From Antedon mediterranea (Eukaryota > Animalia > Echinodermata): a stretch of DNA of 64,000 nt. Each line of letters begins with the position of its first letter. Positions within the stretch are counted from its first letter, which is position 1. Shown here piece after piece: positions 1-44,415 of the stretch. The notes under the pieces are model-generated. The model saw only the letters and a program-made list of their open reading frames with translations, was not told the DNA's origin and searched no databases. Position numbers and translations under genes: made by a program. The DNA lies in NCBI RefSeq assembly GCF_964355755.1, contig NC_092674.1, positions 25,420,001 through 25,484,000 of the forward strand, written 5' to 3'.

Positions 1-669
1 CACGGCGATTTGAATGTTATGATAGAAGTACATTTCTGGAAAGATATATATACTAATTTAGATCAAAAAGGCATTTAAATTAGCTTTAGATCGTTTTTAG
101 GATTTTGATTAATAAATGGGAACATCTCTACAAGACATGAAATCGTTGGAAAAAATATAATTAGCCTAGATGAGTTCCAATTGTCTGTCGAAGTTATGCC
201 TTTCAGCCAAGCTAGTATAGGTCTAGCCTAGGCATGTTAGTAATAAGCTAGGCCTAGCCTAGGCGTTTTAGCCTTGCTAGACCTAGAAATGTTTGGTCGT
301 TTGTTGACATAATTAGCACTAAAGTACCGGATATTTATATGGATAAAATCCATATAAATATAACATTTATTACAATATTAAAAACCAAATGTGACGCTTT
401 TAATCAATGTGAATTAAAAATAGGCCTTGTCTAGGCCAGGCTAGGACTACCTTTTATTTGATTCAAATGACAGGATCGAATCTATGTAGATGTTATATAA
501 AACAAATAAATGTTTTATATTCGTGTAATGGTCCAAATAATGGCATTTTGGTGAATGATGAAATGTTAAATATCAACTAGGCTTTGCCTCATTGATATAT
601 AACCTTTCATAATTCACCTCATCCCATTATTTGTACCATTACACTCATAAACATTCATTATTTGTATAA

Positions 670-1084
670 TATTGTGCATACAACGCATGGTAACTCGCGG
701 CTATTACGGTGGATATGTGAGTGAGCAACCTACTCTGATGGCAAGAACAAAAAGGCATTGTTGTTGCTTGAATTACCCTTGGTTTGGGAAGACCCAACAG
801 AATGCATAATCATGTGCAGTTGTCTAGCCTTCAGGGCATGTACGTTTAGCTGGGATCATAATACTTGTTGGCCTTTTGCCAGACATACTGCGCAAGATGC
901 ATCCTTCTGAAATGGGTGACCCCAAGCGTATTTTCCTCCACTTGACGCTGCCGCTATTTTACGTTCGTCCATTCATATCTATTCGCCCTAAACAGCCATT
1001 GTAATCGGTTGAGAAAGTTGAAAAACACAGTGTTTTAATTGTACCAGCTCCATAATGTGAATAAGTGCCCTCCACCAAGATATC
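670..1084 (-). pseudogene. Degenerate C4-like domain exon (ancestral last exon of the lectin gene)
   Basis: Acceptor ttttag|GA TAT CTT GGT GGA and residual SCAVCL, IPAKRTCPEG, ELPCVVCT. It has an early +1 frameshift, TGG->TAG and an internal deletion relative to 21746-22236. Confidence 0.85.
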
Positions 1085-1278
1085 CTAAAATAAATAACAC
1101 TGTGGTCGAATGGATTAAAATATAATAGTTCTTCAACTAAATTTAGTTTGTTGTAATCAATGGACTCGTTCAGGCTTAGTTTGCCCGCTAAGTTGACTTA
1201 AAACCACTAACTTTGGTAACCAGCTTATCCGGGTATATTACAACACCTGAACGTACCCAATATCATGTTTACTTACTA

Positions 1279-2233
1279 AAGCCGATTTTCCACTAGGCGA
1301 ATTTGTTCGCGCGAATCGAAAGCGTCATGCTATGCACATGCGTATTCTAGTTTCTGTCTGTCATACTCCTTTCTGCAACGAATTCTAGTTCCTTTGATTT
1401 TTCGCTGCAGCGAAATTTAATAGTTCGAATTGTTTCTGCTTTTTGCCTCGGTATAACTTGGACACAGAAAAAGACATTAAAAGAAGAAAATCACTAGCAG
1501 CTATGGCATATAACAAGGTGAAGTCGTCGCTAGAACACAAAACGATGTCTATAGACGTGAAATCCCGTTTGTTTGACGCATACATAGCAAGTATTTTCTT
1601 ATGTAACAGTGAACTCTGGGTACTAAACAAAAAATTACAAGAGAGTATAGATATATATCACAGGAAAATGTTGCGAAAGATGATAGATATTAAATTAACA
1701 GATAGAGTGTGTAACACGAAAATATACAAGATAACAAAACAAGAAGAATGGAGTAAAAGAATTAAACGGAGGAGACTAAAATGGTATGGACACATAATTA
1801 GATTACCGGATGATACCCCAATCAAATAAACAATGAAGGAAACTAACAGGAAAGTAAAACGACCCGTAGGAAGACCAAGAAATAACTGGATGAATCAAAT
1901 ATAGAAAGACTTACAAGGACAAGTAGACACTAACACAATAACAAACCATCCTGCCATAAACAGAAAAAAATGGAAACAAATTGTGGAAAGCGTAATGTCG
2001 GAAGACGGAAAACAGTTTTGCGAAGAAAAAAAAATTGCCCAATCAATTCAATTGAATTAGAGCTCAAGAAATGAGCTATGACGCTTTCATGAGCACTCAT
2101 GCGAATCGAAAAGCTCAGAAGCCACGCGAGGAGCATAAACGTCGCAGCTATTCGCTCATGTAGTGGAGGCGATTTTTTTCTCTTCGAAACATTGGATTGG
2201 CGCAAACAAATTCGCTTAGTGGAAAATGGGCTT
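1279..2233. mobile_element. Non-autonomous TIR DNA transposon (MITE) with nested LINE fragment
   Basis: ~34-bp imperfect TIRs aagccgattttccactaggcgaatttgttcgcgc / gcgcaaacaaattcgcttagtggaaaatgggctt, flanked by TA on both sides. Confidence 0.8.
1448..1930 (+). mobile_element. Non-LTR retrotransposon (RTE-like) RT C-terminal fragment, with stops
   Basis: DIKRRKSLA..RLFDAYIASIFL.NSELW..RRRLKWYGHIIRL..KRPVGRPRNNW. Confidence 0.85.
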
Positions 2234-2235
2234 TA

Positions 2236-2282
2236 CATACGACTTTCTGAAGATGTAAGCTTGCAGTCTGTCTACCCCAATT
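2236..2282 (-). pseudogene. Degenerate HWGR exon of the C4-like family (first 11 nt read KLG*)
   Basis: aattggggtagacagactgc...tcttcagaaagtcgtatg aligns to cattggggtcggaaggactgc...tcttcaaaagtcgtatat (exon 22563-22658). Its gtaagt donor is displaced to ~1271-1276 by a MITE. Confidence 0.7.
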
Positions 2283-5200
2283 CTGTAAATAAAAAACAGT
2301 ATAATAATAATTGACCGAGATTTTAAAGTTAAGGCTTTTTATATTATCCAGACCGAAAGAGTGGAATCTCCGAGCAACTAGATGTCCACCCCCATTTTGG
2401 TTTGGGATGTGGTGGAGAGTAGGCCTACGTTAAAAACAAGTGTGCTATTTCCGAGAATCTAGAGGTGCTATATTTTAAAGAAAGTGAAGGCGTGTAAATT
2501 ATATTGAAAATGATGATACATACTATATAGTTCTACTTCACAAAGAGTGAGAGGTTCCCTTCCTTGAAGATATACACTGACGTACTGTCCTGTAATTGGT
2601 GGACTACACACAATTTCAATAGGATTTGTACGAATCATGGATGTCGATAGAGTAGCTCCACATTGGTCATTTCCTTTATCAAAAGGTGGAATGTTGTTGT
2701 TCCCAACACGAACTTTTGCACCTTTCAGTCTATTACCTAGTTAGTTAGACAAAATGGACATATCGGGTAAATATAATTATGTTTAAAAGATGTCTTTAAA
2801 AAAAGGATAAAAATAACTAATAAAATATAATAGTAAAGTTGTAAAATTACGTTAAATGTTTTTTTTTATTTTTGCTAAAATGTTTTAACTTGTTCTTACC
2901 ACAACAGTCTTCTCTGTTATATATCACAATCTTTGAAATAGGAATGGGTGATCCTAAATCAACATACCACCAAGGATCTTTAGAATTAGAGTCTTTGGAA
3001 AAATTAAACAAATCAGTTACTTCTATTCAGTCATTTTACAATTTATTCTGGCTTTAAAAGTGTAATAATAAACGATTTCGACTAAGATAAAATATAATAA
3101 TAAATACGAAAATATGGTATAAAATATGTATATCCATGTTTCATTGTACTTACGGGTGTGGGTACACGTCTTTTTCCAAAAGTTTCCGTCGGTTTTTCCA
3201 TCGATGGCTCTACCAGCAACAGCTCCAGAACCATGTGTAGAAATCTGTTTAGCTCCTTCAAAATCTGTCACTCTCACATTCACTAAAATTCAATTCGCAA
3301 AAATGTAATACAGTTTTATTATTCTATGCAAAATAATTTAATAATAAGAAGGATAGTACTAAATATTTTCTGAGACTATTCTATACAATTTCGTAAGAGA
3401 AGTTTTCTACCTCCTGTAACCCCTCCGACTTGAGCCTTAATGGAGTATTCACGTTTAATCAACAATCGAAACATTTATTTCATTATAAATTCTCTTAGAT
3501 AATAGGTAGTTTATCGATTCAACATGTATGCGTTATTGTCAATCCTACTAATTTTTTTTTGTAATTGTGTAAATATTCATTTTATTACAACTTCAATTGT
3601 TTTATTTGTCAATGGCTACATCTCTGAATGTATGTCATTTTACCTTTAGGTCTACTAGATGGTGTAATTTATTCATTAAAATGCCCTTTATCCCTTGTCT
3701 GACACGTGACTATGCAGTTTAAAATTGCAGTGAATGGGCATTTTCTATCACTGGTCGCAATGTTAAAATTTGATTACAACCTTCTCTTACTCATATTATT
3801 GCATTTCGCATAACACTCGATTTAACTACCACAATGTAATATAAAACATTTTACATTCGTAAAATAGCACGGTCAATATAATGGGCATTATAAAGACAGT
3901 AGTCACAATTTTGAATAATTTAGTCACCGCCAAACAAAATAACATATTGGTTTAATAAATCATGTTTACACGACCGTCTATGGCACAGTTTTACTGTTGC
4001 ACCCCATCCCACCACGATTTACTTTTGATTTAGGCTTTAAATTATACATTCTTACTTCTATCTGTAAATAGTTCTACTTCACAAAGAGTGAGAAATTCCC
4101 GTCGAGGAAGATATACACTGACGTACTGTCCTGTGATTGGTGGGCTACACACAATTTCAATAGGATTTGTACGAATCATGGATGTCGATAGAGTAGCTCC
4201 ACATTGGTCATTTCCTTTATCAAAAGGTGGAACGTTGTTGTTCCCAACACGAACTTTAGCATCTCTCAGCCTATTACCTAGTTAGTTAGACAAAATGGAC
4301 ATATTGGGTAAGTACAATTATGTTTAAAAGATATCTTTAAAAAGAATAAAAGTAGCCTAACTAGTAAAATATAATAGTAAAGCTGTAAAATTACGTTAAA
4401 TGTTTTTTTTTTTATTTTTGCTAAAAATGTTTTAACTTGTTCTTACCACAACAGTCTTCTCTGTTATATATCACAATCTTTGAAATAGGAATGGGTGATC
4501 CTAAATCAACATACCACCAAGGATTTCCAGAATTCTCTATGAAAAATTAAACAAATCAGTTATTTCTCTATTAGTCATTTTACAATTTATTCTGGCTTTA
4601 AAAATGTAATAGTAAACTTTTTCGACTAAGATCTAATATAATAATAAATACGAAAATATGGTAACAAATGTGAATATCCATGTTGCATTGTACTTACGGG
4701 TGTGGGTACACGTCTTTTCCCCAAATTTTCCGTCCGTTTTTCCATCGATGGCTTTACCAGCAACAGCTCCAGAAGAACCATAATTAGAACTCTGTTTAGC
4801 TTCTACAAACTTTGTAACTTTCACGTTTACTAAAATTAGAAACCATAATACAGACGTTTTATTACACCGTGCAAAATAATTACAGTGGAAAGACATAGTC
4901 AACGGTATACATACCTGCGACGTCTTATAAAACAAAATATGCATTTTATTACAACTTCAGTTGTTTTATTTGTAAATTACAATATCTCTGAATGTGTGGA
5001 ATTTTACCTGTAGGCCTACTAGATGGTGTAATTTCTTCTGTAATTATTTCTCCGCCTTTAAAAAATAAATACATTTTTTTTTAATTTTGTAAATATGCAT
5101 TTTTTCTACTTATTTGTAAATTACAATATCTCTGAATGTGTGGAACTTTACCTGTAGGCCTAGTATTGTGTATAATTTCTTTTATTTCATGAAAATGTCC

Positions 5201-8200
5201 TGTATCCCTTGTCTGACACGTGACTATGCAGTTTAAAATTGCAGTGAATGGGCATTTTCTATCACTGGTCGCAATGTTAAAATTTGATTACAACCTTCTA
5301 TACTCATATTATTGCATTTCGCATAACACTCGATTTAACTACCGCAATGTAATATAAAACATTTTACATTCGTAAAATAGCACGGTCAATATAATGGGCA
5401 TTATAAATACAGTAGTCACAATTTTGAATAATTTAGTCACCGCCAAACAAAATAACATATTGGTTTAATAAATCATGTTTACACGACCGTCTATGGCACA
5501 GTTTTACTGTTGCACCCCATCCCACCACGATTTACTTTTGATTTAGGCTTTAAATTATACATTCTTACTTCTATCTGTATATAGTTCTACTTCACAAAGA
5601 GTGAGAAATTCCCGTCGAGGAAGATATACACTGACGTACTGTCCTGTTATTGGTGGGCTACACACAATTTCAATAGGATTTGTACGAATCATGGATGTCG
5701 ATAGAGTAGCTCCACATTGGTCATTTCCTTTATCAAAAGGTGGAACGTTGTTGTTCCCAACACGAACTTTAGCATCTCTCAGCCTATTACCTAGTTAGTT
5801 AAACAAAATGGACATATTGGGTAAGTACAATTATGTTTAAAAGATATCTTTAAAAAGAATAAAAGTAGCCTAACTAGTAAAATATAATAGTAAAGCTGTA
5901 AAATTATGTTAAATGTTATTTTTATTTTTGCTAAAAATGTTTTAACTTGTTCTTACCACAACAGTCTTCTCTGTTATATATCACAATCTTTGAAATAGGA
6001 ATGGGTGATCCTAAATCAACATACCACCAAGGATTTTCAGAATTCTCTATGAAAAATTAAACAAATCAATTACTTCTATTCAGTCATTTTACAATTTATT
6101 CTGGCTTTAAAAATGTAATAATAAACTTTTTCGACTAAGATCTAATATAATAATAAATACGAAAATATGGTATAAAATGTGAATATCCATGTTGCATTGT
6201 ACTTACGGGTGTGGGTACATGTCTTTTTCCCAAAGTTTCCGTCGGTTTTTCCATCGATGGCTTTACCAGCAACAGCTCCAGAAGAACCATAATTAGAACT
6301 CTGTTTAGCTTCTACAAACTCTGTAACTCTCGCATTCACTACAATTCAATTCGCAAAAATGTAATACAGTTTTATTATTCTATGCAAAATAATTAGAAAA
6401 AACGAAACAAATATTAAATTATTAACGCTAGCCTATACATCTGGAACGTATATATTATAGTAGGGTCTATAAGGATAGTACTAAATATTTTCTGAGACTA
6501 TTCTATACAATTTCGTAAGAGAAGTTAACTTTTCTACCTCCTGTGACCCCTCCGACTTGAGCCTTAATGGAGTATTCACGTTTCCCTACACCACCATTTA
6601 TATTGTGTACTTGGTTGTCAGCCAATTTAGTATGCAAATTACCACCAACCCATCTGACCGAAGAATCTCCTCCATAATTGTATGTTAACACTCCTGTACC
6701 AAATGACCATCCAATCATATCGCCGGATTCTACTGTAATTCGTTCACTTTCAGGTATTCTATAAGTAACTTCTTTGTTAGCGTCACGTGCAGCTGGTATG
6801 TTATTGATACCCACAATCTTAAATTTCGAGTTTGAACCTTCTATCTGCCTAAATACAATAGCTTTAAATGCTGATTTTGTTTTGCCTTGGTATGACCAAC
6901 TTGTAACTTGGCCACTACAAGAAAACATTTGATCTAGCGCTACCATTGTCCAGCCATTACTATCAGGACCACCACGATTTTTAACTTGCCAACCTGCACT
7001 GCAATAGTCAGCTGTAAAATTAATCAACAATCGAAACATTTATTTCATTATCAATTCTCTTAGATAATAGATAGTTTATCGATTCAACATGTATGCGTTA
7101 TTGTCAATCCTGCTAATTTTTGTAATTGTGTAAATATGCATTTTATTACTATTTCAGTTGTTTTATTTGTCAATGGCTACATCTCTGAATGTGTGCCATT
7201 TTACCTTTAGCCTACTAGATGGTGTACTTTCTCTTATTCATGAAAATGCCCTGTATCCATTGTCTGACACATGCAGTTTAAAATGAATGGGCAACAAAAA
7301 CATGTTTACCATTACATTTTGGTATTTATCATTTCATCATATCCGCAGCGCAAAAGCCCGATTGTCGCATTTTCACTCGATTTTGCCCTCTATGAAAAAA
7401 ACCTTTTTCCAATCGCGCCTATATAAATAATATTGTTTGTTTGTGTTCGTTCTTTTAAAAAGGACAAAGGAGTCCGATTGCTCATTAACTTTGTTGCACT
7501 TGTGTGTTTTAGCTCACAAGTTTGTGATAGGATTGCTACCTACTTAAAAATATTGTAAATAAACAAAATTATTCAAGTAGTGAAGTGAAGTTATAAGTAC
7601 GCAAATAAAAACAAAATCAAAGTGCCCCAACCAAATAAAAAATAATGAATATAAAAATTATTATAATTAACGAACGAACGAAAAACTCACAACGCATGCA
7701 ACGTTTGTTGAACATCAACCTAGGCGTACATAAAAGTAACACTTACAGTGAAAATCTACTAGTTTTTACTATGTCACGTACAATAAACAAAGGTTGAAAA
7801 GGCATGTATTAAGATGAGAAAAGACTATAAACCATAATACTGTGAATTTAAAAAAAAAATATTATCATTTCATCATATCAACACAAATTCAGTAGGCTAT
7901 AGGCCTATACCCACCCGTAAAACTTAGGGAAGGTAGGCCTATATCATATTAGAATAAAAAGATTAATAGAGTTTCCACATATAAATCCCAAAACAATTTT
8001 TTTCCGAAAGAATGAACCACCACCAATGATTTGGTTCAGCTTACGTTCACAATTGTAGTAAACCCGCATGTATTTATGGGTTCCTCTGCATGGATCTCCG
8101 AACACAGAATTAGACGCGGGAATTGTACACTGTTGTTTTCCTTCACAACGTCTTGTTATCTCGTTTTCTGCACTCCTTGCGGAACAATCAGTGTTTTCCG

Positions 8201-11200
8201 TCGGTCCGTTGGGACACACGAGGCTATTGCTGCGACCGTAAAAACCATAGTAGATCTTAAGTGAATGATGTGGTTCGCAGGAAATAGTTCCAGTTTCCCC
8301 TTCACATGTATTAATCTGCGATAATCCTACAAACAAATATTTCATTATTACTAACAAGTTCTACATACCTGTAGGCCTACTAGATGATGTAATTTCTCTT
8401 ATTCATGAAAATTCCCTGTATCCCTTGTCTGACACGTGACTATGAGGTTTAAAATTGCTGGTAAATGGTCATTTTCTATCACTGGTCGCAATGTTAACAT
8501 TTTATTACAACCTTCTCTAACTCATATTATTGCATTTCGCATAACACTCAATTTTACTACTGCAATATCATATAAAACATTTTACATTCGTGAAATAATA
8601 AAAGTAGCACGGTCAATATAATGGGCATTACACATACAGTAGTCAGAATTTTGAATAATTTAGTCACCACCAACCAAAATAGCAAATTGGTTTAATAAAC
8701 CATGTTTACACGACCGTCTATGGTACATTTTTACTTTTTGAAATGTAGTTTAAAACCTTCCCGGTACAATTGCGATCATTTGACACCCCATATGTATGGT
8801 AACATGCAGACATTTGTATAACGAACAAACATCGAAAGTGGGGAAAAGTGGGCGATTTTTACCACATTTTGGCCTCTAACTTGGATCCTAGATGGCAGAT
8901 GATGTTCAAATATAGTTTAGAACTTTCCGGTACAATTGGGGTCATTTTGATACCCCATAATTGAAGGTAAAACATTTGTATAACAAACGAACAAACAAAC
9001 AAACACACAAACGTACAAACTCTCTAACTTATAAAATAGATAGTATAAGGATAGTACTAAATATTTTTTTAGACTATTCTATAAAATTTAGTAAGAGAAG
9101 TTAACTTGTCTCACCCCCTGTAACCCTTTCGACTTGAGCCTTAATGGAGTATTCACGTTTCCCTACACCACCATTTATATTGTGTACTTGGTTGTCAGCC
9201 AATTGAGTATGCAAATTACCACCAACCCATCTGACCGAAGAATCTCCTCCATAATTGTATGTTAACACTCCTGTACCAAATGACCATCCAATCATATCGC
9301 CGGATTCTACTGTAATTCGTTCACTTTCAGGTATTCTATAAGTAACTTCTTTGTTAGCGTCACGTGCAGCTGGTATGTTATTGATACCCACAATCTTAAA
9401 TTTCAAGTTTGAACCTTCTATCTGCCTAAATACAATAGCTTTAAATGCTGATTTTGTTTTGCCTTGGTATGACCAACTTGTAACTTGGCCACTACAAGAA
9501 AACATTTGATCTAGCGCTACCATTGTCCAGCCATTACTGTCAGGACCACCACGATTTTTAACTTGCCAACCTGCACTGCAATAGTCAGCTGTAATATTAA
9601 TCAACAATCGAAACATTTATTTCATTATAAATTCTCTTAGATAATAGGTAGTTTATCGATTCAACATGTATGCGTTATTGTCAATCCTACTAATTTTTTT
9701 TTGTAATTGTGTAAATATTCATTTTATTACAACTTCAGTTGTTTTATTTGTCAATGGCTACATCTCTGAATGTGTGTCATTTTACCTTTAGGTCTACTAG
9801 ATGGTGTAATTTATTCATTAAAATGCCATGTATCCCTTGTCTGACACGTGACTATGCAGTTTAAAATTGCAGTGAATGGGCATTTTCTATCACTAGTCGC
9901 AATGTTAAAATTTGATTACAACCTTCTCTAACTCATATTACTGCATTTCGCATAACACTCGATTTCACTACCGCAATGTAATATAAAACATTTTACATTC
10001 ATGAAATAGCACGGTCAATATAATGGGCATTATAAATACAGTAGTCACAATTTTGAATAATTTAGTCACCGCCAACCAAAATAACAAATTGGTTTAATAA
10101 ATCATGTTTACACGACCGTCTATGACACAGTTTTACTGTTGCACCCCATCCCACCACGATTTACTTTTGATTTAGGCTATAAATTATACATTCTTACTTC
10201 TATCTGTATATAGTTCTACTTCACAAAGAGTGAGAAATTCCCGTCGAGGAAGATATACACTGACGTACTGTCCTGTGATTGGTGGGCTACACACAATTTC
10301 AATAGGATTTGTACGAATCATGGATGTCGATAGAGTAGCTCCACATTGGGCATTTCCTTTATCAAAAGGTGGAACGTTGTTGTTCCCAACACGAACTTTA
10401 GCATCTCTCAGCCTATTACCTAGTTAGTTAGACAAAATGGACATATTGGGTAAGTACAATTATGTTTAAAAGATATCTTTAAAAAGAATAAAAGTAGCCT
10501 AACTAATAAAATATAATAGTAAAGCTGTAAAATTACGTTAAATGTTATTATTATTTTTGCTAAAAATGTTTTAACTTGTTCTTACCACAACAATCTTCTC
10601 TGTTATATATCACAATCTTTGAAATAGGAATGGGTGATCCTAAATCAACATACCACCAAGGATTTCCAGAATTCTCTATGAAAAATTAAACAAATCGGTT
10701 ATTTCTCTATTCAGTCATTTTACAATTTATTCTGGCTTTAAAAATGTAATAATAAACTATTTCGACTAAGATCTAATATAATAATAAATACGAAAATATG
10801 GTAACAAATGTGTATATCCATGTTGCATTGTACTTACGGGTGTGGGTACATGTCTTTTTCCCAAAGTTTCCGTCGGTTTTTCCATCGATGGCTTTACCAG
10901 CAACAGCTCCAGAATAACCATAATTAGAACTCTGTTTAGCTTCTACAAACTTTGTAACTTTCACGTTTACTAAAATTAGAAACCATAATACAGACGTTTT
11001 ATTACACCGTGCAAAATAATTACAGTGGAAAAGACATAGTCAACGGTATACATACCTGCGACGTCTTATAAAACAAAATATGCATTTTATTACAACTTCA
11101 GTTGTTTTATTTGTAAATTACAATATCTCTGAATGTGTGAAATTTTACCTGTAGGCCTACTAGATGGTGTCATTTCTTCTGTAATTATTTCTCCGCCTTT

Positions 11201-14200
11201 AAAACAAAAAATTAATACGTTTTTTTGTAATTTTGTAAATATGCATTTTTTTCTACTTATTTGTAAATTACAATATCTCTGAATGTGTGGAACTTTACCT
11301 GTAGGCCTAGTAGATGGTGGATAATTTCTCTTATTTCATGAAAATGTCCTGTATCCCTTGTCTGACACGTGATTATGCAGTTTAAAATTGGAGTGAATGG
11401 TCATTTTCTATCACTGGTCGCAATGTTAAAATTTGATTACAACCTTCTCTAACTCATATTATTGCATTTCGCATAACACTCGATTTAACTACCGCAATGT
11501 AATATAAAACATTTTACATTCGTAAAATAGCAAGGTCAATATAATGGGCATTATAAAGACAGTAGTCACAATTTTGAATAATTTAGTCACCGCCAAACAA
11601 AATAACATATTGGTTTAATAAATCATGTTTACACGACCGTCTATGGCACAGTTTTACTGTTGCACCCCATCCCACCACGATTTACTTTTGATTTAGGCTA
11701 TAAATTATACATTCTTACTTCTATCTGTATATAGTTCTACTTCACAAAGAGTGAGAAATTCCCGGCGAGGAAGATATACACTGACGTACTGTCCTGTGAT
11801 TGGTGGGCTACACACAATTTCAATAGGATTTGTACGAATCATGGATGTCGATAGAGTAGCTCCACATTGGTCATTTCCTTTATCAAAAGGTGGAACGTTG
11901 TTGTTCCCAACACGAACTTTAGCATCTCTCAGCCTATTACCTAGTTAGTTAGACAAAATGGACATATTGGGTAAGTACAATTATGTTTAAAAGATATCTT
12001 TAAAAAGAATAAAAGTAGCCTAACTAATAAAATATAATAGTAAAGCTGTAAAATTACGTTAAATGTTATTTTTATTTTTGCTAAAAATGTTTTAACTTGT
12101 TCTTACCGCAACAGTCTTCTCTGTTATATATCACAATCTTTGAAATAGGAATGGGTGATCCTAAATCAACATACCACCAAGGATTTCCAGAATTCTCTAT
12201 GAAAAATTAAACAAATCAGTTACTTCTATTCAGTCATTTTACAATTTATTCTGGTTTTAGAAATGTAATAATAAACTTTTTCGACTAAGATCTAATATAA
12301 TAATACGAAAATATGGTATAAAATGTGAATATCCATGTTGCATTGTACTTACGGGTGTGGGTACATGTCTTTTTCCCAAAGTTTCCGTCGGTTTTTCCAT
12401 CGATGGCTTTACCAGCAACAGCTCCAGAAGAACCATAATTAGAACTCTGTTTAGCTTCTACAAACTTTGTAACTTTCACGTTTACTAAAATTAGAAACCA
12501 TAATACAGACGTTTTATTACACCGTGCAAAATAATTACAGTGGAAAGACATAGTCAACGGTATACATACCTGCGACGGCTTTTAAAACAAAATATGCATT
12601 TTATTACAACTTCAGTTGTTTTATTTGTAAATTACAATATCTCTGAATGTGTGGAATTTTACCTGTAGGCCTACTAGATGGTGTCATTTCTTCTGTACTT
12701 ATTTCTCCGCCTTTAAAACAAAAAATTAATACGTTTTTTTGTAATTTTGTAAATATGCATTTTTTTCTACTTATTTGTAAATTACAGTATCTCTGAATGT
12801 ATGGAATTTTACCTGTAGGCCTACTAGATGGTGTAATTTCTTCTGTAATTATTTCTCCGCCTTTAAAAAATAAATAAATACATTTTTTTTGTAATTATTT
12901 TTGTAAATATGCATTTTTTCTACTTATTTGTAAATTACAATATCTCTGAATGTGTGGAACTTTACCTGTAGGCCTAGTAGATGGTGTATAATTTCTCTTA
13001 TTTCATGAAAATGTCCTGTATCCCTTGTCTGACACGTGACTATGCAGTTTAAAATTGCAGTGAATGGGCATTTTCTATCACTGGTCGCAATGTTAAAATT
13101 TGATTACAACCTTCTCTAACTCATATTATTGCATTTCGCATAACACTCGATTTCACTACCGCAATGTAATATAAAACATTTCACATTCGTAAAATAGCAC
13201 GGTCAATATAATGGGCATTATACATACAGTTAGTCACAATTTTGAATAATTTAATTACCGCCAAACAAAATAACATATTGGTTTAATAAATCATGTTTAC
13301 ACGACCGTCTATGGCACAGTTTACTGTTGCACCCCATCCCACCACGATTTACTTTTGATTTAGGCTATAAATTATACATTCTTACTTCTATCTGTATATA
13401 GTTCTACTTCACAAAGAGTGAGAAATTCCCGTCGAGGAAGATATACACTGACGTACTGTCCTGTGATTGGTGGGCTACACACAATTTCAATAGGATTTGT
13501 ACGAATCATGGATGTCGATAGAGTAGCTCCACATTGGTCATTTCCTTTATCAAAAGGTGAAACGTTGTTGTTCCCAACACGAACTTTAGCATCTCTCAGC
13601 CTATTACCTAGTTAGTTAGACAAAATGGACATATTAGGTAAGTACAATTATGTTTAAAAGATATCTTTAAAAAGAATAAAAGTAGCCTAACTAATAAAAT
13701 ATAATAGTAAAGCTGTAAAATTACGTTAAATGTTATTTTTATTTTTGCTAAAAATGTTTTAACTTGTTCTTACCACAACAGTCTCCTCTGTTATATATCA
13801 CAATCTTTGAAATAGGAATGGGTGATCCTAAATCAACATACCACCAAGGATTTCCAGAATTCTCTATGAAAAATTAAACAAATCAGTTATTTCTCTATTC
13901 AGTCATTTTACAATTTATTCTGGCTTTAAAAATGTAATAATAAACTTTTTCGACTAAGATCTAATATAATAATAAATACGGAAATATGGTATAAAATGTG
14001 TATATCCATGTTGCATTGTACTTACGGGTGTGGGTACACGTCTTTTTCCCAAAGTTTCCGTCGGTTTTTCCATCGATGGCTTTACCAGCAACAGCTCCAG
14101 AATAACCATAATTAGAACTCTGTTTAGCTTCTACAAACTTTGTAACTTTCACGTTTACTAAAATTAGAAACCATAATACAGACGTTTTATTACACCGTGC

Positions 14201-15171
14201 AAAATAATTACAGTGGAAAGACATAGTCAACGGTATACATACCTGCGACGTCTTATAAAACAAAATATGCATTTTATTACAACTTCAGTTGTTTTATTTG
14301 TAAATTACAATATATCTGAATTTGTGGAATTTTACCTGTAGGCCTACTAGATGGTGTCATTTCTTCTGTAATTATTTCTCCGCCTTTAAAACAAAAAATT
14401 AATACGTTTTTTTGTAATTTTGAAAATATGCATTTTTTTCTACTTATTTGTAAATTACAATATCTCTGAATGTGTAGAATTTTACCTGTAGGCCTACTAG
14501 ATGGTGTAATTTCTTCTGTAATTATTTCTCCGCCTTTAAAAAATAAAGAAATACATTTTTTTGTAATTTTGTAAATATGCATTTTTTCTACTTATTTGTA
14601 AATTACAATATCTCTGAATGTGTGGAACTTTACCTGTAGGCCTACTAGATGGTGTAATTTCTTCTGTAATTATTTCTCCGCCTTTAAAAAATAAATAAAT
14701 ACATTTTTTTTGTAATTTTGTAAGTATGCATTTTTTCTACTTATTTGTAAATTACAATGTCTCTGAATGTGTGGAATTTTACCTGTAGGCTTACTAAATG
14801 GTGTAATTTTTTCTGTCATTCTTTCTCCGCCTATAAAAAAGGAAATAAAAAAAGAAAAGAAAATACAACACAACACAACAATGTAATTAAATGCGTTTAT
14901 GTAAAGAGATCTCGTACTATTGCACGCCATGTGACCCACAATCGTCCAATCAAATGACAGCCGGGAATTTATTTGGGTGTTATATAATAGATACTTACTG
15001 GAGGGAGTAGTTGTTTCCCCAACATTTTTTGTACAATTCTGTTTAGCCTCTAAAAAATGTGCCACTGAAATTACAAAATGCATTTTTCTATTACTACAAG
15101 AAAACCTTTATAGATACCATTATAATAACCATTATTTTCATTTTACCAATCATACTACTATATTCAGTATC

Positions 15172-15228
<57 letters not shown>

Positions 15229-16339
15229 AATGTACCTCGTAAAGATAATGTATTAAAGATAGTCCCTCAAATAACATGAACAATTAAGATTAAAAAAGGC
15301 TTTGAATAGGCCATTTCGCAGTTTTAATAAAGAGGAAAAATAAAAAACTTAAAAAAACAACTTTTTCAACAATTAAATTCAACCAAAAATCTACTGACTT
15401 CCAGTCAATTTGAATATTTAAACATTTACCAGCTCATGTCGGTTGGTTGGTCGGTCGGTAAACACTAACTTGAGCACGCGACTGCAGCCATGTATATGGA
15501 ATTGTTTGCTTTAAATTATTGATTTTTCAGGTAAATCTTTTTTTTTTCTATCCAATTTTTGGTCAAAGTGACTACTTCTAGAACCTTTACATCGATTGTT
15601 GACAAAGTTAATTTATTTTTAAATGATAACTAGGGTGACATTAGTTCAGACTGACTAACTTAAAAGGCAAGCAAAGCGTTTGCGAAACATAGTAGAGAAT
15701 ACTCTATTTGTACTTATTTATTTTCTGTTATTAGATCAAGAAAATAATTGTTTAGACACTTTTCTGAAAATTAAAGATAACATTTTTATAATTTAGTGAA
15801 AGATAGTGAAAATCTGTCAAGTTTGTGAATAATAATTCAAAATACAATGTTTATTTACTCTCAAAAGCAATGTGCAGGAAAAGAAAATAAAGGAAATAAG
15901 ATAGTAATGTTCTAAATCACATAAATGCAAACTTACATTTGGCGCCGAAAAAGAAGTTCCAGGTCAATCCGCCATTTTTCACTTTGGCCTTTATAATAAT
16001 TATAATTTGAAATATATAATTATTAGTTTAGAAAACTGGTCAGGGAGATAGGAAGATATCAAAATATTCAATTATATATTTTTAAGAAAATAAGCATATA
16101 ATACGTCGAAAATTAGACAGACTTACATAAGCAAATGTCAGTAATTGGCAAACTTAGAGTTTGGCAAGAAAAGTATAGACTAAGTCTTACGCAAGCAAAC
16201 GTCTAAGTGTGCGAACAACTAAAGTTTCCTACTGTAGACTAGGCTTAAGACTATGTGGCCTTACCGATATCTTTGCTTCCGTTAGCAAAATCAGACAACA
16301 GACTAAAACGACAGTACATTTTAAGATCTTCATTTTCAT
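2272..16339 (-). CDS. Secreted mosaic multi-lectin (~1490 aa predicted): signal - WNFFF - linkers - FTL1-3 - domain X - SUEL - domain X - FTL4-6
   Basis: Hand-built GT-AG exons, frame-consistent with no junction stops: 16339-16265 (MKMKILKCTVVLVCCLILLTEAKIS), 15988-15937 (AKVKNGGLTWNFFFGAK), 15064-14999, 48-nt micro-exons, six 3-exon F-type lectin domains, exons 9588-9115, 8326-8045 and 7011-6538, and a putative terminal exon 2282-2272 (KLG*). The sum is 4473 nt. The terminal exon choice is the least certain part. Confidence 0.75.
2524..3282 (-). CDS. F-type lectin domain 6 (most diverged)
   Basis: Exons 3282-3154 (129 nt), 2992-2900 (93 nt), 2736-2524 (213 nt). Motif spacing is H-X27-REDCCGNR. 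Confidence 0.88.
3411..3456 (-). pseudogene. Deleted remnant of a third domain X exon
   Basis: Matches 6538-6583 and then jumps to sequence matching 7022 onward: a 438-bp deletion that removes the splice acceptor. Confidence 0.85.
4056..4829 (-). CDS. F-type lectin domain 5
   Basis: Exons 4829-4698, 4536-4447, 4277-4056. Confidence 0.9.
5569..6338 (-). CDS. F-type lectin domain 4
   Basis: Exons 6338-6207, 6046-5957, 5790-5569. Confidence 0.9.
6538..7011 (-). CDS. Unnamed 'domain X' exon, copy 2
   Basis: 474-nt phase-1/1 exon, near-identical to 9115-9588. Confidence 0.8.
8045..8326 (-). CDS. SUEL / rhamnose-binding (Gal_lectin) domain exon
   Basis: 282-nt phase-1/1 exon with CEG..ISC..YGR..C..CEGKQQC..FGDPC.GT.KY..V.Y.C, carrying the SUEL YGR/DPC/KY signature. 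Confidence 0.92.
9115..9588 (-). CDS. Unnamed ~157-aa extracellular 'domain X' exon, copy 1
   Basis: 474-nt phase-1/1 exon (acag|CT...GGG G|gtgag): DYCSAGWQ...FSCSGQVTSWSY...GDMIGW...REYSIKAQV. Confidence 0.8.
10198..10969 (-). CDS. F-type lectin domain 3
   Basis: Exons 10969-10838, 10675-10586, 10419-10198. Confidence 0.9.
11719..12484 (-). CDS. F-type lectin domain 2
   Basis: Exons 12484-12353, 12196-12107, 11940-11719, near-identical to domain 1. Confidence 0.9.
13386..14157 (-). CDS. F-type lectin (fucolectin/FTP) domain 1
   Basis: Exons 14157-14026, 13863-13774, 13607-13386. Motifs AKQSS..AIDG..CTHT / PWWYVDLG..IYNREDCCG / NRL..GQYV..LTLCEVEL, with the canonical fucose motif H-X26-R-X-D-X4-R. 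Confidence 0.9.
14336..14830 (-). repeat. ~149-bp tandem repeat, each unit carrying a 48-nt micro-exon (GGEIITEEITPSSRPT)
   Basis: ag|GC...ACA G|gtaaa at 14830-14783, 14681-14634, 14533-14486 and 14383-14336. Further copies at 12860-12813, 12710-12663, 11196-11149 and 5055-5008. Confidence 0.8.
15174..15224. repeat. (AT)n microsatellite
   Basis: About 25 AT units. Confidence 0.95.
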
Positions 16340-17546
16340 TAGTAGTTTTCAGTACATCTTCAAACGAATGAATTTGATGGAATGTGAATGTACAACCGAT
16401 CCTGTTTTGTTATATATACTGTACCAGTAACTTTCTAACAGATGTGGAGTATTATTTTACGTTATATTATTTTCATTTTATTACTGTTTATATGGCAAAA
16501 TAATCAAAATTAGATTTCTTATTATATTGCAAACCAATGTAATGTCTGTATTTTGTATTTGTTTTTAGTTTTATTATTTAATTTATTTTTATAATGCCTA
16601 AATTAAATGCACGTGTACCGTTCCAATAATTGTAAAGTTTTTTTTAATGAATTTACAGTACATATTTTGTACATAAGTGCTATAAAAAAAACAAATAAAT
16701 ATGAAAAATATATATAAATATAAATATTAGTATTGATACAGATGGTTCTAGACAATAAAACTCAAGAATTAATTCTTATTTTACGATTTTTTTTATTAGT
16801 TTATATTGCGTTATAGAGCGCATAGTATAAACATTATTTAATAATAATTTTGTGTTGATTTGATGTGGAAAATATGATAATTATGTATTATAAAATATTT
16901 TATAGGGCCTATGTATATATAAATTCACAACGAAAAAAAAAACAGTATGGTTCTTTGTGTTTAAAATAAAATTAAAAACTTCAAACGTATGAGAGTAAAT
17001 GCCGCTAGACAATTCCATAAGTTATTATTAAGTTATATTTATTATTATTATTTTAATAAAGATTTGCTTAAATCTATTACTAGTACATTCGCATTTTATT
17101 TATATATGATATTAAAATGCGATAATTGTTAAAATTTCTAGTGTTGAAATCCAAAGTTTAAAATTTTCAATTGTTATGATAAACAAACAAGCAAAGCAAA
17201 CATCAAAATACAGAAAATGTTATATTATTAAATTCAATTAATTTAATTATTAATAAGTATTAAATGTGTACTCGTGTGGGTCGACTAGTACATTTGAATT
17301 GTATTTATGTAGGTTTACTGTTTATTATGATTATTTGTTTAATGTTGTCATATTGGTGAGCCGAAGACCCGACATCACAAAGTTACGTAACCCAGCCGTG
17401 ACCATCTTAAACTCTTCGTGTAGATTATTGATAGGTCAGAGTTGGTTCGCTTCCTTGATCTGTAAACTCTGTATGTTCGAATAGATATGTCAGTATTCGA
17501 TATTGGGGAAAAACCGATGTAGAAACAGGCGAGTCATTCGTAACAT

Positions 17547-19012: not shown

Positions 19013-19536
19013 TTCTTATTCTTATTCTTATTCTTTTATTGCCAAATATAAAATACATGAAAAACACGACATACAAAAAAATAACAAACAATAGAACCAA
19101 CTGACCAACTGAGTGAGCTGGCATGGGACACAAAAGCGAACCTAATCACTATGACTTAAAGCCTGTGTTCCCCACTCACCCAGTTTCACAAGCAATGATT
19201 ATACCATCTTAAAATATAATATATCAAAATTCCAAAGCTAAGTTTAGATCATAAAATAAAATATATATATAAAAAGCATTTTAAATTATATACATAGGCC
19301 TAATTATTATCGGAGAACAAATTTATTTTAAGTTTAGCAAGGAATGTAGGGAAATAATCCAATAGCAGGGAATCTTTCACTTCATCATGGATGTCTTCCC
19401 ACAGTCGCGGGAAGACATGGATAACTGAGCGATGCAAACAGTTGGTCCGTGTATACAAATGCTTGAAACTTAAGGTTTCTTGACGTCGAGTATTGATTTT
19501 TATGTCCTGTAGGCGAGTCTGTTGTATCCCGGACAT
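19013..19536 (-). mobile_element. LINE 3' end fragment
   Basis: ORF end NTRRQ..TRTN..RSV...PRLWE resembles a CR1/L2-group C-terminus. AATAAA and an (AATAAG)n tail lie at 19013-19040. Confidence 0.65.
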
Positions 19537-19539
19537 CTA

Positions 19540-30588: not shown

Positions 30589-33294
30589 TTACCATGTGCA
30601 AACAACGCATGCCAACTCGTCGTTGCCAACGTACGGTGGACATGGGAGTGACCCACATACTCCGACAGCAGGGGAGAGCAAAAAGCCATTCTGGTTTGAC
30701 GAGGAGCTCGGCCTTGCTTGAGGATTTGCATCGACACAAAGGTGTTCATATCCGCTTGGACGACCACCAAGGGAACCCATTAACAAACCTTCGTACTCTT
30801 TGGTCCAGCCTTCAGGGCATGTACGTTTAGCTGGGATCATCATACTGGTCGAGCGACCTCGCGCCAGGCAGACCGCACAAACTGCATCCCAGTCATTCAT
30901 GCCACTCAACGGAGCGTAAGAGCTGGTATCATACTCAGCACCATATACTCCTGACCGTCCGCTGGAGGCTCCACTCGCTATCAAGCCGGTATTGTATTCA
31001 GGCGACTCTGGTAAACACAGTGGCTTGGTACCAGCCCCATGTTGTGAATACAAACCTCCACCAACATATCCTAAAATTGTAAAATAAATTACGATGTAAA
31101 TGTATACATCAATCTTACATTAATTTGTTCATAATAAATACTGAATAATATTACCTTAAAACAAGATTCCTTTCAGGAAAAAAACGTAAATGCCCAGTTT
31201 TAACGCATATTTTCCATGTTAAATTTTCCAATTTTAATTTTATTATTTTGCAGGATTTCACAATCAGGTTTAAGAAAAAAAACTATTTAGTGAACCAGTT
31301 CACCGGGGTAACACCCTACTCTTCTTTAAAGTGCACACAGGTTATAACTGTGTACACTGGACCTACGGTTTATAGTCCTTATCCGAGAAGACTTGTTCCA
31401 CCACCAGAACTACTGTAGGAGCGAGTCGGCCTCGAACCCTTGCCGATGTTGTTGGCTTTTTAGGTACAGTAAACGGCGCCCCTTAACCGCTCATCCATTT
31501 GACTCTTTAACCTACCAGTATATACGATGTCTGAAGAATCTGGAGTGCAGTCAGTTCGTCCCCAATGAGTGTACGCAACACTGGAATTTTTCATCTGCCT
31601 CTCTTGGCATTCATTTGGTGTTTGAGTGTCTTCTGTAAATGAAGTAATATTGTATTTATAGAGTTTCATTTTACGTTTTAGTTAATCACAAAAGAGTTTA
31701 TTGTAAAAGTATTCACTACCAATTTATAGCCCAATCCTATAGATGCGAGGTGAGAATTTGATTTTTAGTAGGGAGCTTCGATTTCAGACGACCTATGACC
31801 TAGCCATGACGTGTCATCGGTCGTCCTCTGAATCTAGAAACCATCAAAACTGTGTCGAGGAATAAGAAGCACGTCCTAAGTTTCCCGCATGCCCACATAT
31901 GTTTCTAAGCTCCCTATTTATTAATAATTAATATAAATATGGATTTTGTGATGCGCTAAATCCATGTTTGTGCCCATACATGGACACGATGACGTCATAT
32001 CACTACCATATTTGGACACATCACACTTTTTTTGTCACATAAATTTTGATAGTGTAGACAGAGATTTATACTGTAGGCCTCCTGATTCCAGTCTCTGTAA
32101 TGTACATATAAACAAAATCATGAAAACTTTACCTTCTTCGTCGAAAAATAAATTCCAGACATTTTGCCCGTCATCGTCAGATCCCTTTAAAATAATTATG
32201 ATAACATTATAAAATCATTTTTTTTATTCATGAACCTTTTACTTTTTTTGTGAAAGTAAATATATGGCATTATATTAACTACTACATTAAATATTTCATA
32301 TCATAACGTTTTCAGTGTCACTTTAATGATTTTAAAAGTGGATCACATTATGAAATTATGAATACAATTTTAGCAAAAACAATAATGTAAAACCAACTTA
32401 GTGAATAAAATTTGGATCCCAAAAAAGAAAAAAAAAGAAAATAACTATTTATATGGTCCAGTAAGAAGCAATTAATGAACAACGATTTTACTATTTCTAT
32501 TTGAGCTTTAAAAGTGTTTATTTAATTTTAAAATGTATAGTTAAATGTGTGTGTTTGTTGTGTTAACATACTGTACATCCATAATTACCCCTGGTCGAAT
32601 ATCATCAAATCCAGATATTTTTTGTATTCATTTAAAGATATATTGTCCCCCTAAAAAAATATTTTTTATAATTTTTTTGTTGAATATGTTATTTTAATAT
32701 CACATAATAGTTATTCACTCTCACAAAAAATTGGGTCTGAAAAAAATTTATTTACCTGAGAAAAATGTAATTTAAAGCAAAAAATGGTCAAATTGTCTGG
32801 AAGACAATGAGTTTTTGGGTAATTTAACTGTTTATTTTGTCTTTTTATAGGTGAAATAATTTTTTTTCTCCGTTTTTTTTCTTATGGAAGTGAACAACTT
32901 CATTAAAACTGCAAAATGGCCTATTCAAAGTCCGATTTTAAAAATCTTTATTTTTCATGATTTTGGGGGACAATACATCTTTAACTGTGAGAACCAGGTG
33001 CGAATCAAAGATGTTGAAAGTGGGAACGTAAACATTGTCAAATGAATTGTTGGACCCAACAACATTATTGTTCTATCTTTTACATTGTAATTTTCAAAAT
33101 TTGGGAAGCTTTCAGTCCGCCTAATATTGACTACCGTACTATTTTCAATCTCACAGAACAATACACATACCATACTTTTCCCCTTCTTCTTCCTAACCCA
33201 GAACAAAAATGGTTTCAAAATGCGTATAACTTACCTGTGTCTGATGTACAAGAAGCAGGAAAGAGAAAACCAAAATGGTTGTATACTTGAACAT
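30589..33294 (-). CDS. Secreted C4-like domain protein, paralog 3 (~236 aa)
   Basis: Exons 33294-33235 (MFKYTTILVFSFLLLVHQTQ), 32184-32133 (GSDDDGQNVWNLFFDEE), 31632-31516 (..YTHWGRTDC..) and 31070-30589. Same phases as paralog 2. Confidence 0.88.
31290..31503 (-). mobile_element. tRNA-derived SINE with Deu/Nin-like central domain
   Basis: A box tggatgagcggttaagg and B box ggttcgaggcc, followed by tcttctcggataaggactataaaccgtaggtcc...aagagtaggg..ccccgg. Confidence 0.75.
32636..32980. mobile_element. Kolobok-like MITE
   Basis: TIRs agatatattgtcccc / ggggacaatacatct with TTAA on both sides. Related pieces lie at ~30195-30370 and ~59155-59226. Confidence 0.7.

Positions 33295-44380: not shown

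Positions 44381-44415
<35 letters not shown>

What the first reader, a model, noticed from the sequence alone, without database searches (positions are those of the whole stretch)
670..16339. Exon shuffling caught in the act: a C4-like gene converted into a giant multivalent lectin
Seen in sequence: the first two exons (signal MKMKILKCTVVLVCCLILLTEAKIS and AKVKNGGLTWNFFFGAK) are clear homologs of the first two exons of the adjacent C4-like gene (MKIFNCIVICVCCLILLTEAKVP and ATEDKSGVIWNFFFGGK). Decayed copies of that family's last two exons sit downstream at 2236-2282 and 670-1084. Between them, in what is a phase-1 intron in the paralogs, lie ~13 kb of exclusively phase-1/1 modules (6 F-type lectin, 2 domain X, 1 SUEL, linkers). 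Established knowledge: phase-1/1 modules are the classical currency of exon shuffling. Inference: a lectin cassette invaded a C4-family paralog, took over its promoter and signal peptide, amplified, and the original C4 domain was then lost, creating a new secreted glycan-binding protein.
Basis: partly seen in the sequence, partly recalled or inferred. Interest (0 to 1): 0.88.

Follow-up and report, generated by a model that had tools for sequence, protein, structure and literature searches.

The report
Lectin cassette hijacks feather-star secretion leader
In a feather star, 34 lectin-cassette exons lie in one open reading frame between the intact first two exons and the decayed last two exons of a short-chain-collagen-C4-like gene, so the old gene's signal peptide likely now exports a predicted nine-domain sugar-binding protein: a clear case of a known kind of gene birth.

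Summary
Observation confirmed. The window is Antedon mediterranea. 'C4' means short-chain collagen C4-like, not complement C4. Two leader exons are followed by 34 phase-1/1 exons (6 F-type lectin, 2 X, 1 SUEL, linkers), giving a 1,499-residue open frame, then by broken C4 exons 3 and 4. Leader and remnant are both closest to the adjacent paralog and about equally diverged from it (~80% identity), which fits one interrupted gene. Spliced FTL-linker-X paralogs exist elsewhere, so a likely donor family exists. One low-depth contig suggests this copy is spliced, but no leader-to-lectin transcript was seen. RefSeq splits the locus into two leaderless models.

The C4 remnant has lost 13% of its conserved sites, has 17 indels and carries a transposon, while the lectin repeats differ by only 1-8%. 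The visible amplification therefore looks younger than the C4 loss, and the event is not 'in the act'.

Domain X has no Pfam family. It is a mobile extracellular beta-sandwich predicted to resemble lectin-like folds. Leader capture has precedent in cone-snail toxins and notothenioid antifreeze. No earlier scan note covers this locus or X.

The parts
16410..16416 (-). TATA-like box in a core promoter/5' UTR homologous to paralog P1
   Evidence: function inferred
16265..16339 (-). Exon 1, predicted signal peptide of the C4-like family, phase 0
   Evidence: (hydropathy peak 3.33)
16143..16162 (-). Intron-1 20-mer shared with the tandem repeat in P1 intron 1
15937..15988 (-). Exon 2 (WNFFF exon), phase 0/1, C4-like family
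14999..15064 (-). Exon 3, phase 1/1, first cassette exon; partly like an FTL first exon and a linker
   Evidence: (marginal); origin inferred
14243..14830 (-). Four 48-nt T/S/P/E-rich linker exons and one inferred 9-nt micro-exon
13386..14157 (-). F-type lectin unit a (3 exons: 132/90/222 nt)
11719..12860 (-). Two linkers, micro-exon and FTL unit b (12484-11719)
10198..11196 (-). Linker, micro-exon and FTL unit c (10969-10198)
9115..9588 (-). Domain X copy 1, single 474-nt phase 1/1 exon, predicted beta-sandwich
8045..8326 (-). SUEL/rhamnose-binding-lectin domain, single 282-nt phase 1/1 exon
6538..7011 (-). Domain X copy 2 (467/474 nt identical to copy 1)
   Evidence: contig beginning its match at the exon's first base
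5569..6338 (-). FTL unit d
4056..5055 (-). Linker, micro-exon and FTL unit e (4829-4056)
3405..3456 (-). 3' stub of a third X copy whose acceptor and most of the exon are deleted (coordinates approximate)
2524..3282 (-). FTL unit f (129/93/213 nt), the most diverged copy
2236..2282 (-). Decayed C4-like exon 3. The acceptor at 2282 gives a terminal KLG-stop, as in RefSeq XP_071950909.1
1277..2235 (.). Element with 44-nt terminal inverted repeats (89% complementary) at the end of pseudo-exon 3, holding a LINE-like ORF fragment (1398-1829, +)
   Evidence: the LINE label is recalled, no Pfam hit
668..1084 (-). Decayed C4-like exon 4 (17-22 indels, stops), closest to P1
21746..25321 (-). Intact paralog P1 (RefSeq XP_071950160.1/161.1, short-chain collagen C4-like), exon phases 0, 1, 1
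30589..33294 (-). Intact paralog P2 (XP_071950125.1)
36583..38947 (-). Intact paralog P3 (XP_071950126.1)

Best explanation
This is likely one chimeric gene: a block of phase-1/1 lectin exons lies in the phase-1 second intron of a short-chain-collagen-C4-like paralog whose last two exons are dead, and it is likely spliced behind that gene's signal-peptide exons to make a predicted secreted chain of about 1,500 residues. The order is signal, WNFFF peptide, T/S/P-rich spacers, FTL x3, X, SUEL, X, FTL x3, stop. Shown: the anatomy, the phases, the open frame, the common closest paralog of leader and remnant, and spliced FTL-linker-X paralogs elsewhere. Inferred history: (1) tandem duplication gave a spare P1-type gene; (2) an FTL/X block from the paralogous lectin family entered intron 2 by non-homologous or repeat-mediated recombination; (3) the C4 exons died early, and the old exon-3 region now supplies only a terminal acceptor and stop; (4) unequal crossing-over later multiplied and homogenised the FTL-linker units, and the SUEL exon probably arrived later. 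Inferred function: a high-avidity agglutinin or matrix/mucus lectin with six near-identical fucose sites, one rhamnose/galactose-type site and two candidate carbohydrate-binding X domains. It would gain valency rather than new specificities.
For: 34 of 34 cassette exons are phase 1/1, with 0 stops in 4,498 nt. Exon lengths are fixed in units a-e and change by multiples of 3 in f, while intron lengths vary. Intron 2 is phase 1 in P1. Against P1, differences by codon position are 7/41, 6/40, 12/40 for the leader and 21/134, 25/134, 35/136 for the remnant, which are about equal. P1 gives the best score for both: leader 139 (next 113); remnant sister to P1 at 94/91 within a 100/98 clade; DNA scores 406 against 286 and 231. 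The leader has 0 indels in 121 aligned nt, where the remnant's indel rate gives P = 0.003-0.012 for any indel (computed over 127 nt), and it keeps 21/25 shared residues against 55/84 in the remnant (p about 0.06). Run X1 has joints at exon boundaries from diverged paralogs: F1-F2, F2-F3, F3-linker-X, and X running into an F1 start. One X1 contig is identical to X copy 2 over 284 nt from the exon's first base and carries 36 other letters in front, where a DNA contig runs on into the intron. The basic triad H...RxDx4R is present in 6 of 6 FTLs. Matches to solved lectins: FBP32 E 6e-43, eel lectin E 3e-27; rhamnose-binding lectins E 2e-54. X model pLDDT 97, with Z 10.9 to the Cwp84 lectin-like region.
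Against: No joint from exon 1 to exon 2, or from exon 2 to the cassette, is among the 15 listed of 35 joints, and the 36 letters in front of X copy 2 were not shown. RefSeq makes two leaderless models of 196 and 1,075 aa. Constraint on the leader is weak: substitutions at positions 1+2 do not differ from the remnant (p 0.48-0.64), and lack of frameshifts alone gives P = 0.035-0.13. The leader tree is unresolved (57/79, open). The remnant's protein tree was codon-mapped on P1 and leans towards it. Neither boundary intron matches P1's intron 2 above shuffles, and no shared 12-mer marks the insertion ends. FTL exons are no more conserved than their introns, and replacement changes outnumber silent ones in 7 of 10 pairs among a-e. 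The calcium motif reads AIDGK, with K where the review gives N/D/S. X's best structural match is a phage capsid chain (Z 11.3), and Foldseek gave no hit at E <= 0.001.
Confidence: 0.68

Rival explanations
1. The insertion happened, but the result is a barely transcribed or decaying locus. The leader is not productively used, and the cassette multiplies neutrally or yields only the short leaderless products that RefSeq models.
For: Own-locus X1 contigs have depth 5-26 and are mostly unspliced, against 300-560 for paralog contigs (contig depth is a poor measure of expression). Exon identity equals intron identity among units. A third X copy is deleted. RefSeq has no leader.
Against: No stop or frameshift in 36 exons although introns carry indels. 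ATG, frame and all leader splice sites are intact despite about 20% divergence from P1. One apparently spliced own-locus contig exists.
Confidence: 0.14
2. Two neighbours rather than one interrupted gene. A deletion or unequal crossover fused the 5' half of one P1-type paralog to a lectin gene lying in the cluster, and the remnant is the 3' half of a second P1-type paralog. The gene is chimeric, but there was no intronic insertion.
For: The P1 subfamily has further members on the same chromosome outside the window (P0003, P0123, P0124). The leader is as identical to P0123 (25/38) as to P1 (25/40). No intron-2 homology or insertion footprint links the two halves.
Against: It needs two exactly complementary losses. 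Leader and remnant show the same divergence from P1 and both score best against it.
Confidence: 0.1
3. The leader-lectin fusion is older and defines a family. The expressed FTL-X paralogs already carry this leader, and this locus is one later-amplified member, possibly the founder.
For: Several diverged FTL/X transcripts are in X1. Something 80-90% like the leader region is laid there (bin depth 15.5 at likeness 80; 1.85 at likeness 90).
Against: P1's own exon 1 is 84% identical and can explain that signal. None of 150 X-domain hits has the WN-F-F leader motif or a C4 end, and none of 120 C4 hits has an FTL motif (the C4 search was limited to 89-284 residues). The remnant lies at this locus.
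Confidence: 0.06
4. A mis-assembled chimera, or an over-expanded repeat.
For: No listed contig spans the whole stretch, and the DNA runs may be the assembly's own sample.
Against: A DNA contig runs without a difference from the last 30 nt of FTL exon f into the C4 remnant (2089-2553), one letter under the tool's bridging rule. Another covers 15542-16500. FTL contigs are 2.5-4 times deeper than unique ones. A run from a second study holds pieces of the leader, X copy 2 and both remnant exons with 0 differences.
Confidence: 0.02

Closest known systems
RefSeq XP_071950910.1 (fucolectin-like, 196 aa) and XP_071950909.1 (uncharacterized, 1,075 aa), Antedon mediterranea
   Same: Same locus and nearly the same cassette exons; the long model ends with the same KLG-stop at acceptor 2282.
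   Different: Split in two, no signal peptide, leader exons and micro-exons absent, and part of unit b missing.
Tandem and mosaic F-type lectins (striped bass FBP32, Xenopus pentraxin-FTL fusion, sea urchin SpCRL; PMC5712786, passages and section 13)
   Same: Multiple FTL domains in one secreted chain; the review calls domain duplication and shuffling predominant in this family.
   Different: Six FTLs with SUEL and the unnamed X domain, five of them 97-99% identical, behind a leader from an unrelated family whose remnant is still in place. This combination was not in the passages read.
Cone-snail doppelganger toxins with captured conotoxin 5' UTR/signal exons (PMC13542836, passages)
   Same: A new secreted gene made by joining the 5' UTR and signal exon of one family to another gene at a phase-1 intron.
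   Different: Here a large multi-exon cassette lies inside the recipient, and the recipient's dead 3' exons remain.
Notothenioid antifreeze glycoprotein from trypsinogen (PMC3449122, passages)
   Same: The old gene's 5' exon and 3' end are kept, its functional domain is lost, and the new middle is amplified.
   Different: AFGP amplified a 9-bp piece of the same gene; here foreign folded domains were imported.
Echinoderm X-domain mosaic proteins, e.g. Amphiura filiformis XP_072051771.1 (FTL + X) and XP_072045785.1 (F5/8-type + X repeats), Patiria miniata XP_038047394.1 (VWD, F5/8, SUEL, X), Antedon XP_071957123.1 (C-type lectin + X)
   Same: X sits beside lectin and other extracellular domains.
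   Different: None has the C4-type leader motif or a C4 end.
[quoted passage not shown]
   Same: Source of the leader and the remnant; paralogs P1-P3 are intact members.
   Different: The lectin gene no longer encodes this domain. The crinoid members tested have no Pfam collagen hit. Not complement C4.

Membership tests
F-type lectin domain | Basic triad motif H...RxDx4(R/K) | tested here: met
   6 of 6 units; spacing 26 in a-e and 27 in f. The review writes HX24; a spacing of 26 in the eel lectin is recalled.
F-type lectin domain | Calcium motif h2DGx, x small hydrophilic (N, D, S) | tested here: inconclusive
   AIDGK in 6 of 6: h2DG met, x is K
F-type lectin domain | Sequence similarity to solved FTLs | tested here: met
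   3cqo E 6.2e-43, 1k12 E 3e-27; PF22633 above its cut-off
F-type lectin domain | Binds L-fucose | not testable with these tools
   needs a binding assay
SUEL / rhamnose-binding lectin | PF02140 match with YGR and DPC..T.KY motifs | tested here: met
   79.8 bits against a cut-off of 31.4; aligned motifs
SUEL / rhamnose-binding lectin | Binds rhamnose or galactose | not testable with these tools
   needs a binding assay
Short-chain collagen C4-like proteins | Intact C4-like C-terminal domain in the product | tested here: not met
   Remnant has 17-22 indels and stops; every modelled ending stops within 3-41 residues of the last FTL
Chimeric gene by exon shuffling | Symmetric-phase modules in a same-phase intron of the recipient | tested here: met
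   34 of 34 exons phase 1/1; P1 intron 2 is phase 1
Chimeric gene by exon shuffling | Parts trace to different parent families | tested here: met
   Leader and remnant to P1; cassette to spliced FTL/X paralogs
Chimeric gene by exon shuffling | One transcript joins the parts | tested here: inconclusive
   Only one apparently spliced own-locus contig, inside the cassette; no leader joint among those listed
Chimeric gene by exon shuffling | Uninterrupted ortholog at the same position in an outgroup | not testable with these tools
   No whole genome was held. Anneissia has a leader+C4 family member (P0011), but orthology and synteny were not tested.
Lectin-like / CBM beta-sandwich (Cwp84 lectin-like, DUF4082, PHR) for domain X | Shared fold and family-level sequence match | tested here: inconclusive
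   Z 10.9, rmsd 2.9, 137 aligned to 4ci7; tied with 9jwb (Z 11.3) and 7tog (Z 10.3). Atlas named clusters at 0.86-0.88 are leads only. No Pfam or PDB sequence hit.

The most novel reading that the evidence does not exclude
A complete, datable birth record of a mosaic secreted lectin at one locus: recipient promoter and signal kept under selection, recipient domain dead in place, live donor paralogs elsewhere, a later SUEL addition and continuing unit turnover. Domain X would be an undescribed, widely shuffled carbohydrate-binding module of echinoderms, hemichordates and probably other marine invertebrates, making the product a three-specificity lectin.
Probability: 0.3. Interest if true: 0.62.

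Novelty: new member of a known kind. Interest (0 to 1): 0.42.

Why it matters
Most exon-shuffling cases are old and have lost the recipient's discarded half. Here leader, remnant, nearest intact paralog and candidate donor transcripts can all be compared, so the order of steps (insertion, domain loss, amplification) can be tested. The data suggest domain loss came before the visible amplification. It also corrects a split, leaderless RefSeq annotation. It draws attention to domain X, a single-exon module without a Pfam family, with 196 library hits and a confident beta-sandwich model, which is a ready target for a glycan array.

Tried and rejected
Whole-genome work was not possible because no genome is held, so synteny and donor loci were not examined. 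The run search listed no holder on record as RNA. X1 was treated as RNA only because it shows joints at exon boundaries.

Leader expression: X1 holds only an unspliced contig at 16124-16314, and the depth gained at likeness 80 cannot be assigned between P1 and a lectin paralog. This is inconclusive. Parts without cover prove nothing, and the tables were cut.

DNA joints 666/673 to 14913/14915, which seem to skip the whole cassette, were rejected as an allele without the cassette. Their sides are 26-44 letters and both ends lie in very high-depth repeats.

Insertion footprint: no shared direct or inverted 12-mer between the boundary introns, and no intron-2 homology above shuffles.

The first indel test on a MAFFT alignment gave P = 0.18. 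That alignment misplaces the middle of the remnant, so pairwise alignments were used; both results are reported.

The single-sequence fold of X failed (pLDDT 39). Foldseek gave no match at E <= 0.001, and PDB sequence searches gave none.

Searches for longer proteins were insensitive: X found 1 of 103 candidates and F3 1 of 16, and neither returned the donor paralog. No search for C4-domain proteins over 284 residues was run, so intact lectin-C4 fusions elsewhere are not excluded.

The 5'-truncated linker remnants at 12996, 11329 and 5180 (29-31 nt) would break the frame and were left out of the model. Those at 9812, 8395, 7232 and 3670 were also left out.

Literature: searches listed no paper on this locus. 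Subscription papers and supplements were not seen.


Full report
Organism and names. The last exon of the gene next to the finding is 100% identical to RefSeq 'short-chain collagen C4-like isoform X2' of the feather star Antedon mediterranea (accessions). 'C4-like' therefore refers to the spongin short-chain-collagen-related family, not complement C4. I saw the paper that defined that family only as a reference title in PMC6626399 (passages). Three intact members lie upstream on the minus strand: P1 25321-21746, P2 33294-30589 and P3 38947-36583.

The observation. Exon 1 (16339-16265) and exon 2 (15988-15937) match P1 at 58/69 and 38/52 nt. Homology extends into the promoter and intron ends (scores 301.5 and 167 against shuffle maxima of 142 and 110), and a 20-mer of P1's intron-1 repeat sits in this gene's intron 1. 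Behind exon 2's phase-1 donor come 34 exons, all phase 1/1 with AG/GT ends. They give 4,498 coding nt and 1,499 residues without a stop. The order is exon 3, linkers, FTL a-c, X, SUEL, X, FTL d-f. Splicing to the acceptor at 2282 adds KLG and a stop; reading into the intron or splicing to pseudo-exon 4 also ends within 41 residues, so no C4 domain can be made. RefSeq has the same cassette as two models without a signal peptide, 196 aa and 1,075 aa, the second ending in the same KLG. It skips the four 9-nt micro-exons, which are my inference.

The remnant. Pseudo-exon 4 (1084-668) aligns to P1, P2 and P3 with scores 406, 286 and 231 (shuffle maxima 79-86). Pseudo-exon 3 is no better than shuffles by score (59 against 59.5). 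It ends where a 959-nt element with 44-nt inverted ends begins, and the sequence after the element resumes like the start of P1's third intron.

One gene or two? Leader and remnant are about equally far from P1 at each codon position: 7/41, 6/40, 12/40 against 21/134, 25/134, 35/136. Among 11 crinoid leaders, P1 scores best (139, then 113 for P0123), though the leader tree is unresolved. In the exon-4 tree of 18 rows the remnant is sister to P1 (94/91) within a 100/98 clade; that row was codon-mapped on P1 and leans towards it. The WN-F-F motif lies directly before a C4 domain in 12 protein records of 11 genes, one from Anneissia japonica, so leader-plus-C4 is the older state. A single interrupted gene is the simplest reading. 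It is not proven: no intron-2 homology or target-site footprint survives, and other subfamily members lie outside the window.

Order of events. At sites invariant in P1, P2 and P3, the remnant differs at 32 of 241 (12/83, 15/98, 5/60 by codon position; 48 of 252 on the poorer alignment). That flat pattern indicates long neutral decay, with 17-22 indels. FTL units a-e are 97-99% identical in exons and introns alike, unit f 92-94%, and the X copies 467/474. A 2.9-kb block (3455-6395 / 9597-12537) is 96.7% identical. The visible amplification is therefore younger than the death of the C4 exons, unless gene conversion has reset the repeats, which I cannot exclude. Paralog contigs differ from the cassette by 21 of 176 letters in X but only 12 of 287 in SUEL, which hints that SUEL came later (inference). 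'Caught in the act' overstates it: the capture is old enough for heavy decay, and only the repeat turnover is recent.

Is the leader used? Indirect support is moderate. There are 0 indels in the leader, where the remnant's rate gives P = 0.003-0.012 (0.035-0.13 counting frameshifts only; 0.18 on the first alignment). It keeps 21/25 shared residues against 55/84 (p about 0.06), but shows no difference in first- and second-position substitutions (p 0.48-0.64). Five runs of two studies hold the stretch; I laid three of them and X1 again alone. X1 shows joints at exon edges from diverged paralogs: F1 to F2 (depth 310), F2 to F3 (382 and 86), F3 to X through a linker reading GEIMTGEIKPSSK (440; read by hand), and X to an F1 start (495; letters between not known). 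Several of the same variant letters are in the DNA runs, so these are other genes, and a spliced FTL-linker-X family exists elsewhere as a likely donor. For this copy, one 320-letter contig is identical to X copy 2 from the exon's first base and has 36 other letters in front, where a DNA contig continues into the intron. That suggests splicing at low level. No leader joint is among the 15 of 35 joints listed. Chimeric transcription remains unshown.

Assembly. A DNA contig runs unchanged from the last 30 nt of FTL f into the remnant (2089-2553), and another covers 15542-16500. X1, from another study, has unchanged pieces of leader, X copy 2 and both remnant exons. No contig spans everything, and the DNA runs may be the assembly's own sample.

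Domains. All six FTLs keep H...RxDx4R with adjacent cysteines and match solved fucolectins; the calcium motif has K at its last position. SUEL passes Pfam and aligns with rhamnose-binding lectins. X has no Pfam or PDB sequence match but 196 library hits at E <= 0.001. I scanned 28 of the 150 listed hits, mostly the longer ones, plus P0001: X lies beside C-type lectin, FTL or F5/8, HYR, SRCR, WSC, EGF, Sushi, PKD and protease domains. Nine of the ten hits looked up carry names, from brittle star, sea star, feather star and acorn worm. With a 69-row alignment it folds at pLDDT 97 as a beta-sandwich. The best matches are a cyanophage capsid chain (Z 11.3, rmsd 3.3, 146 aligned), the Cwp84 protease/lectin-like entry (10.9, 2.9, 137) and carbohydrate esterase domains (10.3, 9.9); fucolectins score 6-7. 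The Atlas names Lectin_like, DUF4082 and PHR as weak neighbours. Sugar binding by X is a hypothesis.

Mechanism. Most likely the C4-family promoter drives a transcript whose signal peptide exports a beads-on-a-string lectin. Near-identical fucose sites raise avidity for clustered fucosylated surfaces, as multivalency does in FTLs (PMC5712786, section 13), and SUEL and X may add cross-linking. Immune agglutination or a matrix/mucus role are both possible; neither was tested.

Comparison and verdict. Tandem and mosaic FTLs are common, and the review calls domain shuffling predominant in the family. Capture of a 5' UTR and signal exon at a phase-1 intron is documented for cone-snail toxins (PMC13542836, passages). 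Retention of an old gene's ends around an amplified middle is the antifreeze-glycoprotein story (PMC3449122, passages). Eight searches (listings and abstract starts only, apart from the four papers named) showed nothing on this locus. The scan's own notes had nothing on it or on X. This is a real, unusually legible, unannotated chimeric gene of a known kind, with one under-described mobile domain. Interest 0.42.

Noticed in passing
window 9115-9588 and 6538-7011; proteins P0125-P0274: Domain X is a Pfam-less, single-exon, phase-1/1 module found beside many extracellular domain types in echinoderm and hemichordate proteins; Atlas neighbours also list annelids and sponges. It merits its own family definition.
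   Followed up: partly
window 40379-40723, 43666-44640, 47733-48344 (minus strand): Three tandem ORFs with long poly-glycine runs. Two end in a similar KW(K/E)PM motif and one has Gly/His/Lys/Ser-rich repeats; a signal-like start lies at 48550-48774. Probably a family of secreted glycine-rich structural proteins.
   Followed up: no
window 47061-47303 (minus strand): Short ORF with a signal-like start, two cysteines and a KR site; possibly the first exon of a secreted peptide precursor or of another glycine-rich gene.
   Followed up: no
window 50700-57400 (minus strand): Two tandem multi-exon genes that look like monocarboxylate/MFS transporters (label recalled from the translations).
   Followed up: no
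window 60471-62393 (plus strand): Long ORF with F-box and leucine-rich repeats.
   Followed up: partly
window 19497-20093 (plus strand): ORF fragment with EEAD..., DTDV and HAFTG motifs typical of a widespread invertebrate transposon nuclease (recalled); no Pfam hit. It lies between the lectin gene and P1.
   Followed up: no
window 24350-25230: Tandem repeat in intron 1 of paralog P1; one copy of its core 20-mer survives in the lectin gene's intron 1.
   Followed up: yes
window 25253-25262 and 16265-16270: P1 has two donors six bases apart (RefSeq isoforms X1 and X2). The lectin leader keeps only the second, and P0123 appears to use the first.
   Followed up: partly
window 13386, 11719, 10198, 5569, 4056 (ends of the third FTL exons): Reading through each donor gives SKNV-stop, the ending RefSeq uses for its 196-aa model; intronic termination could give shorter forms with fewer FTLs.
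   Followed up: no
X1 contig laid on window 8045-8331: A 1,779-letter contig carries a SUEL exon with 12 differences in 287 letters; several of these variant letters are also in the DNA runs. A candidate source gene of the SUEL exon.
   Followed up: no
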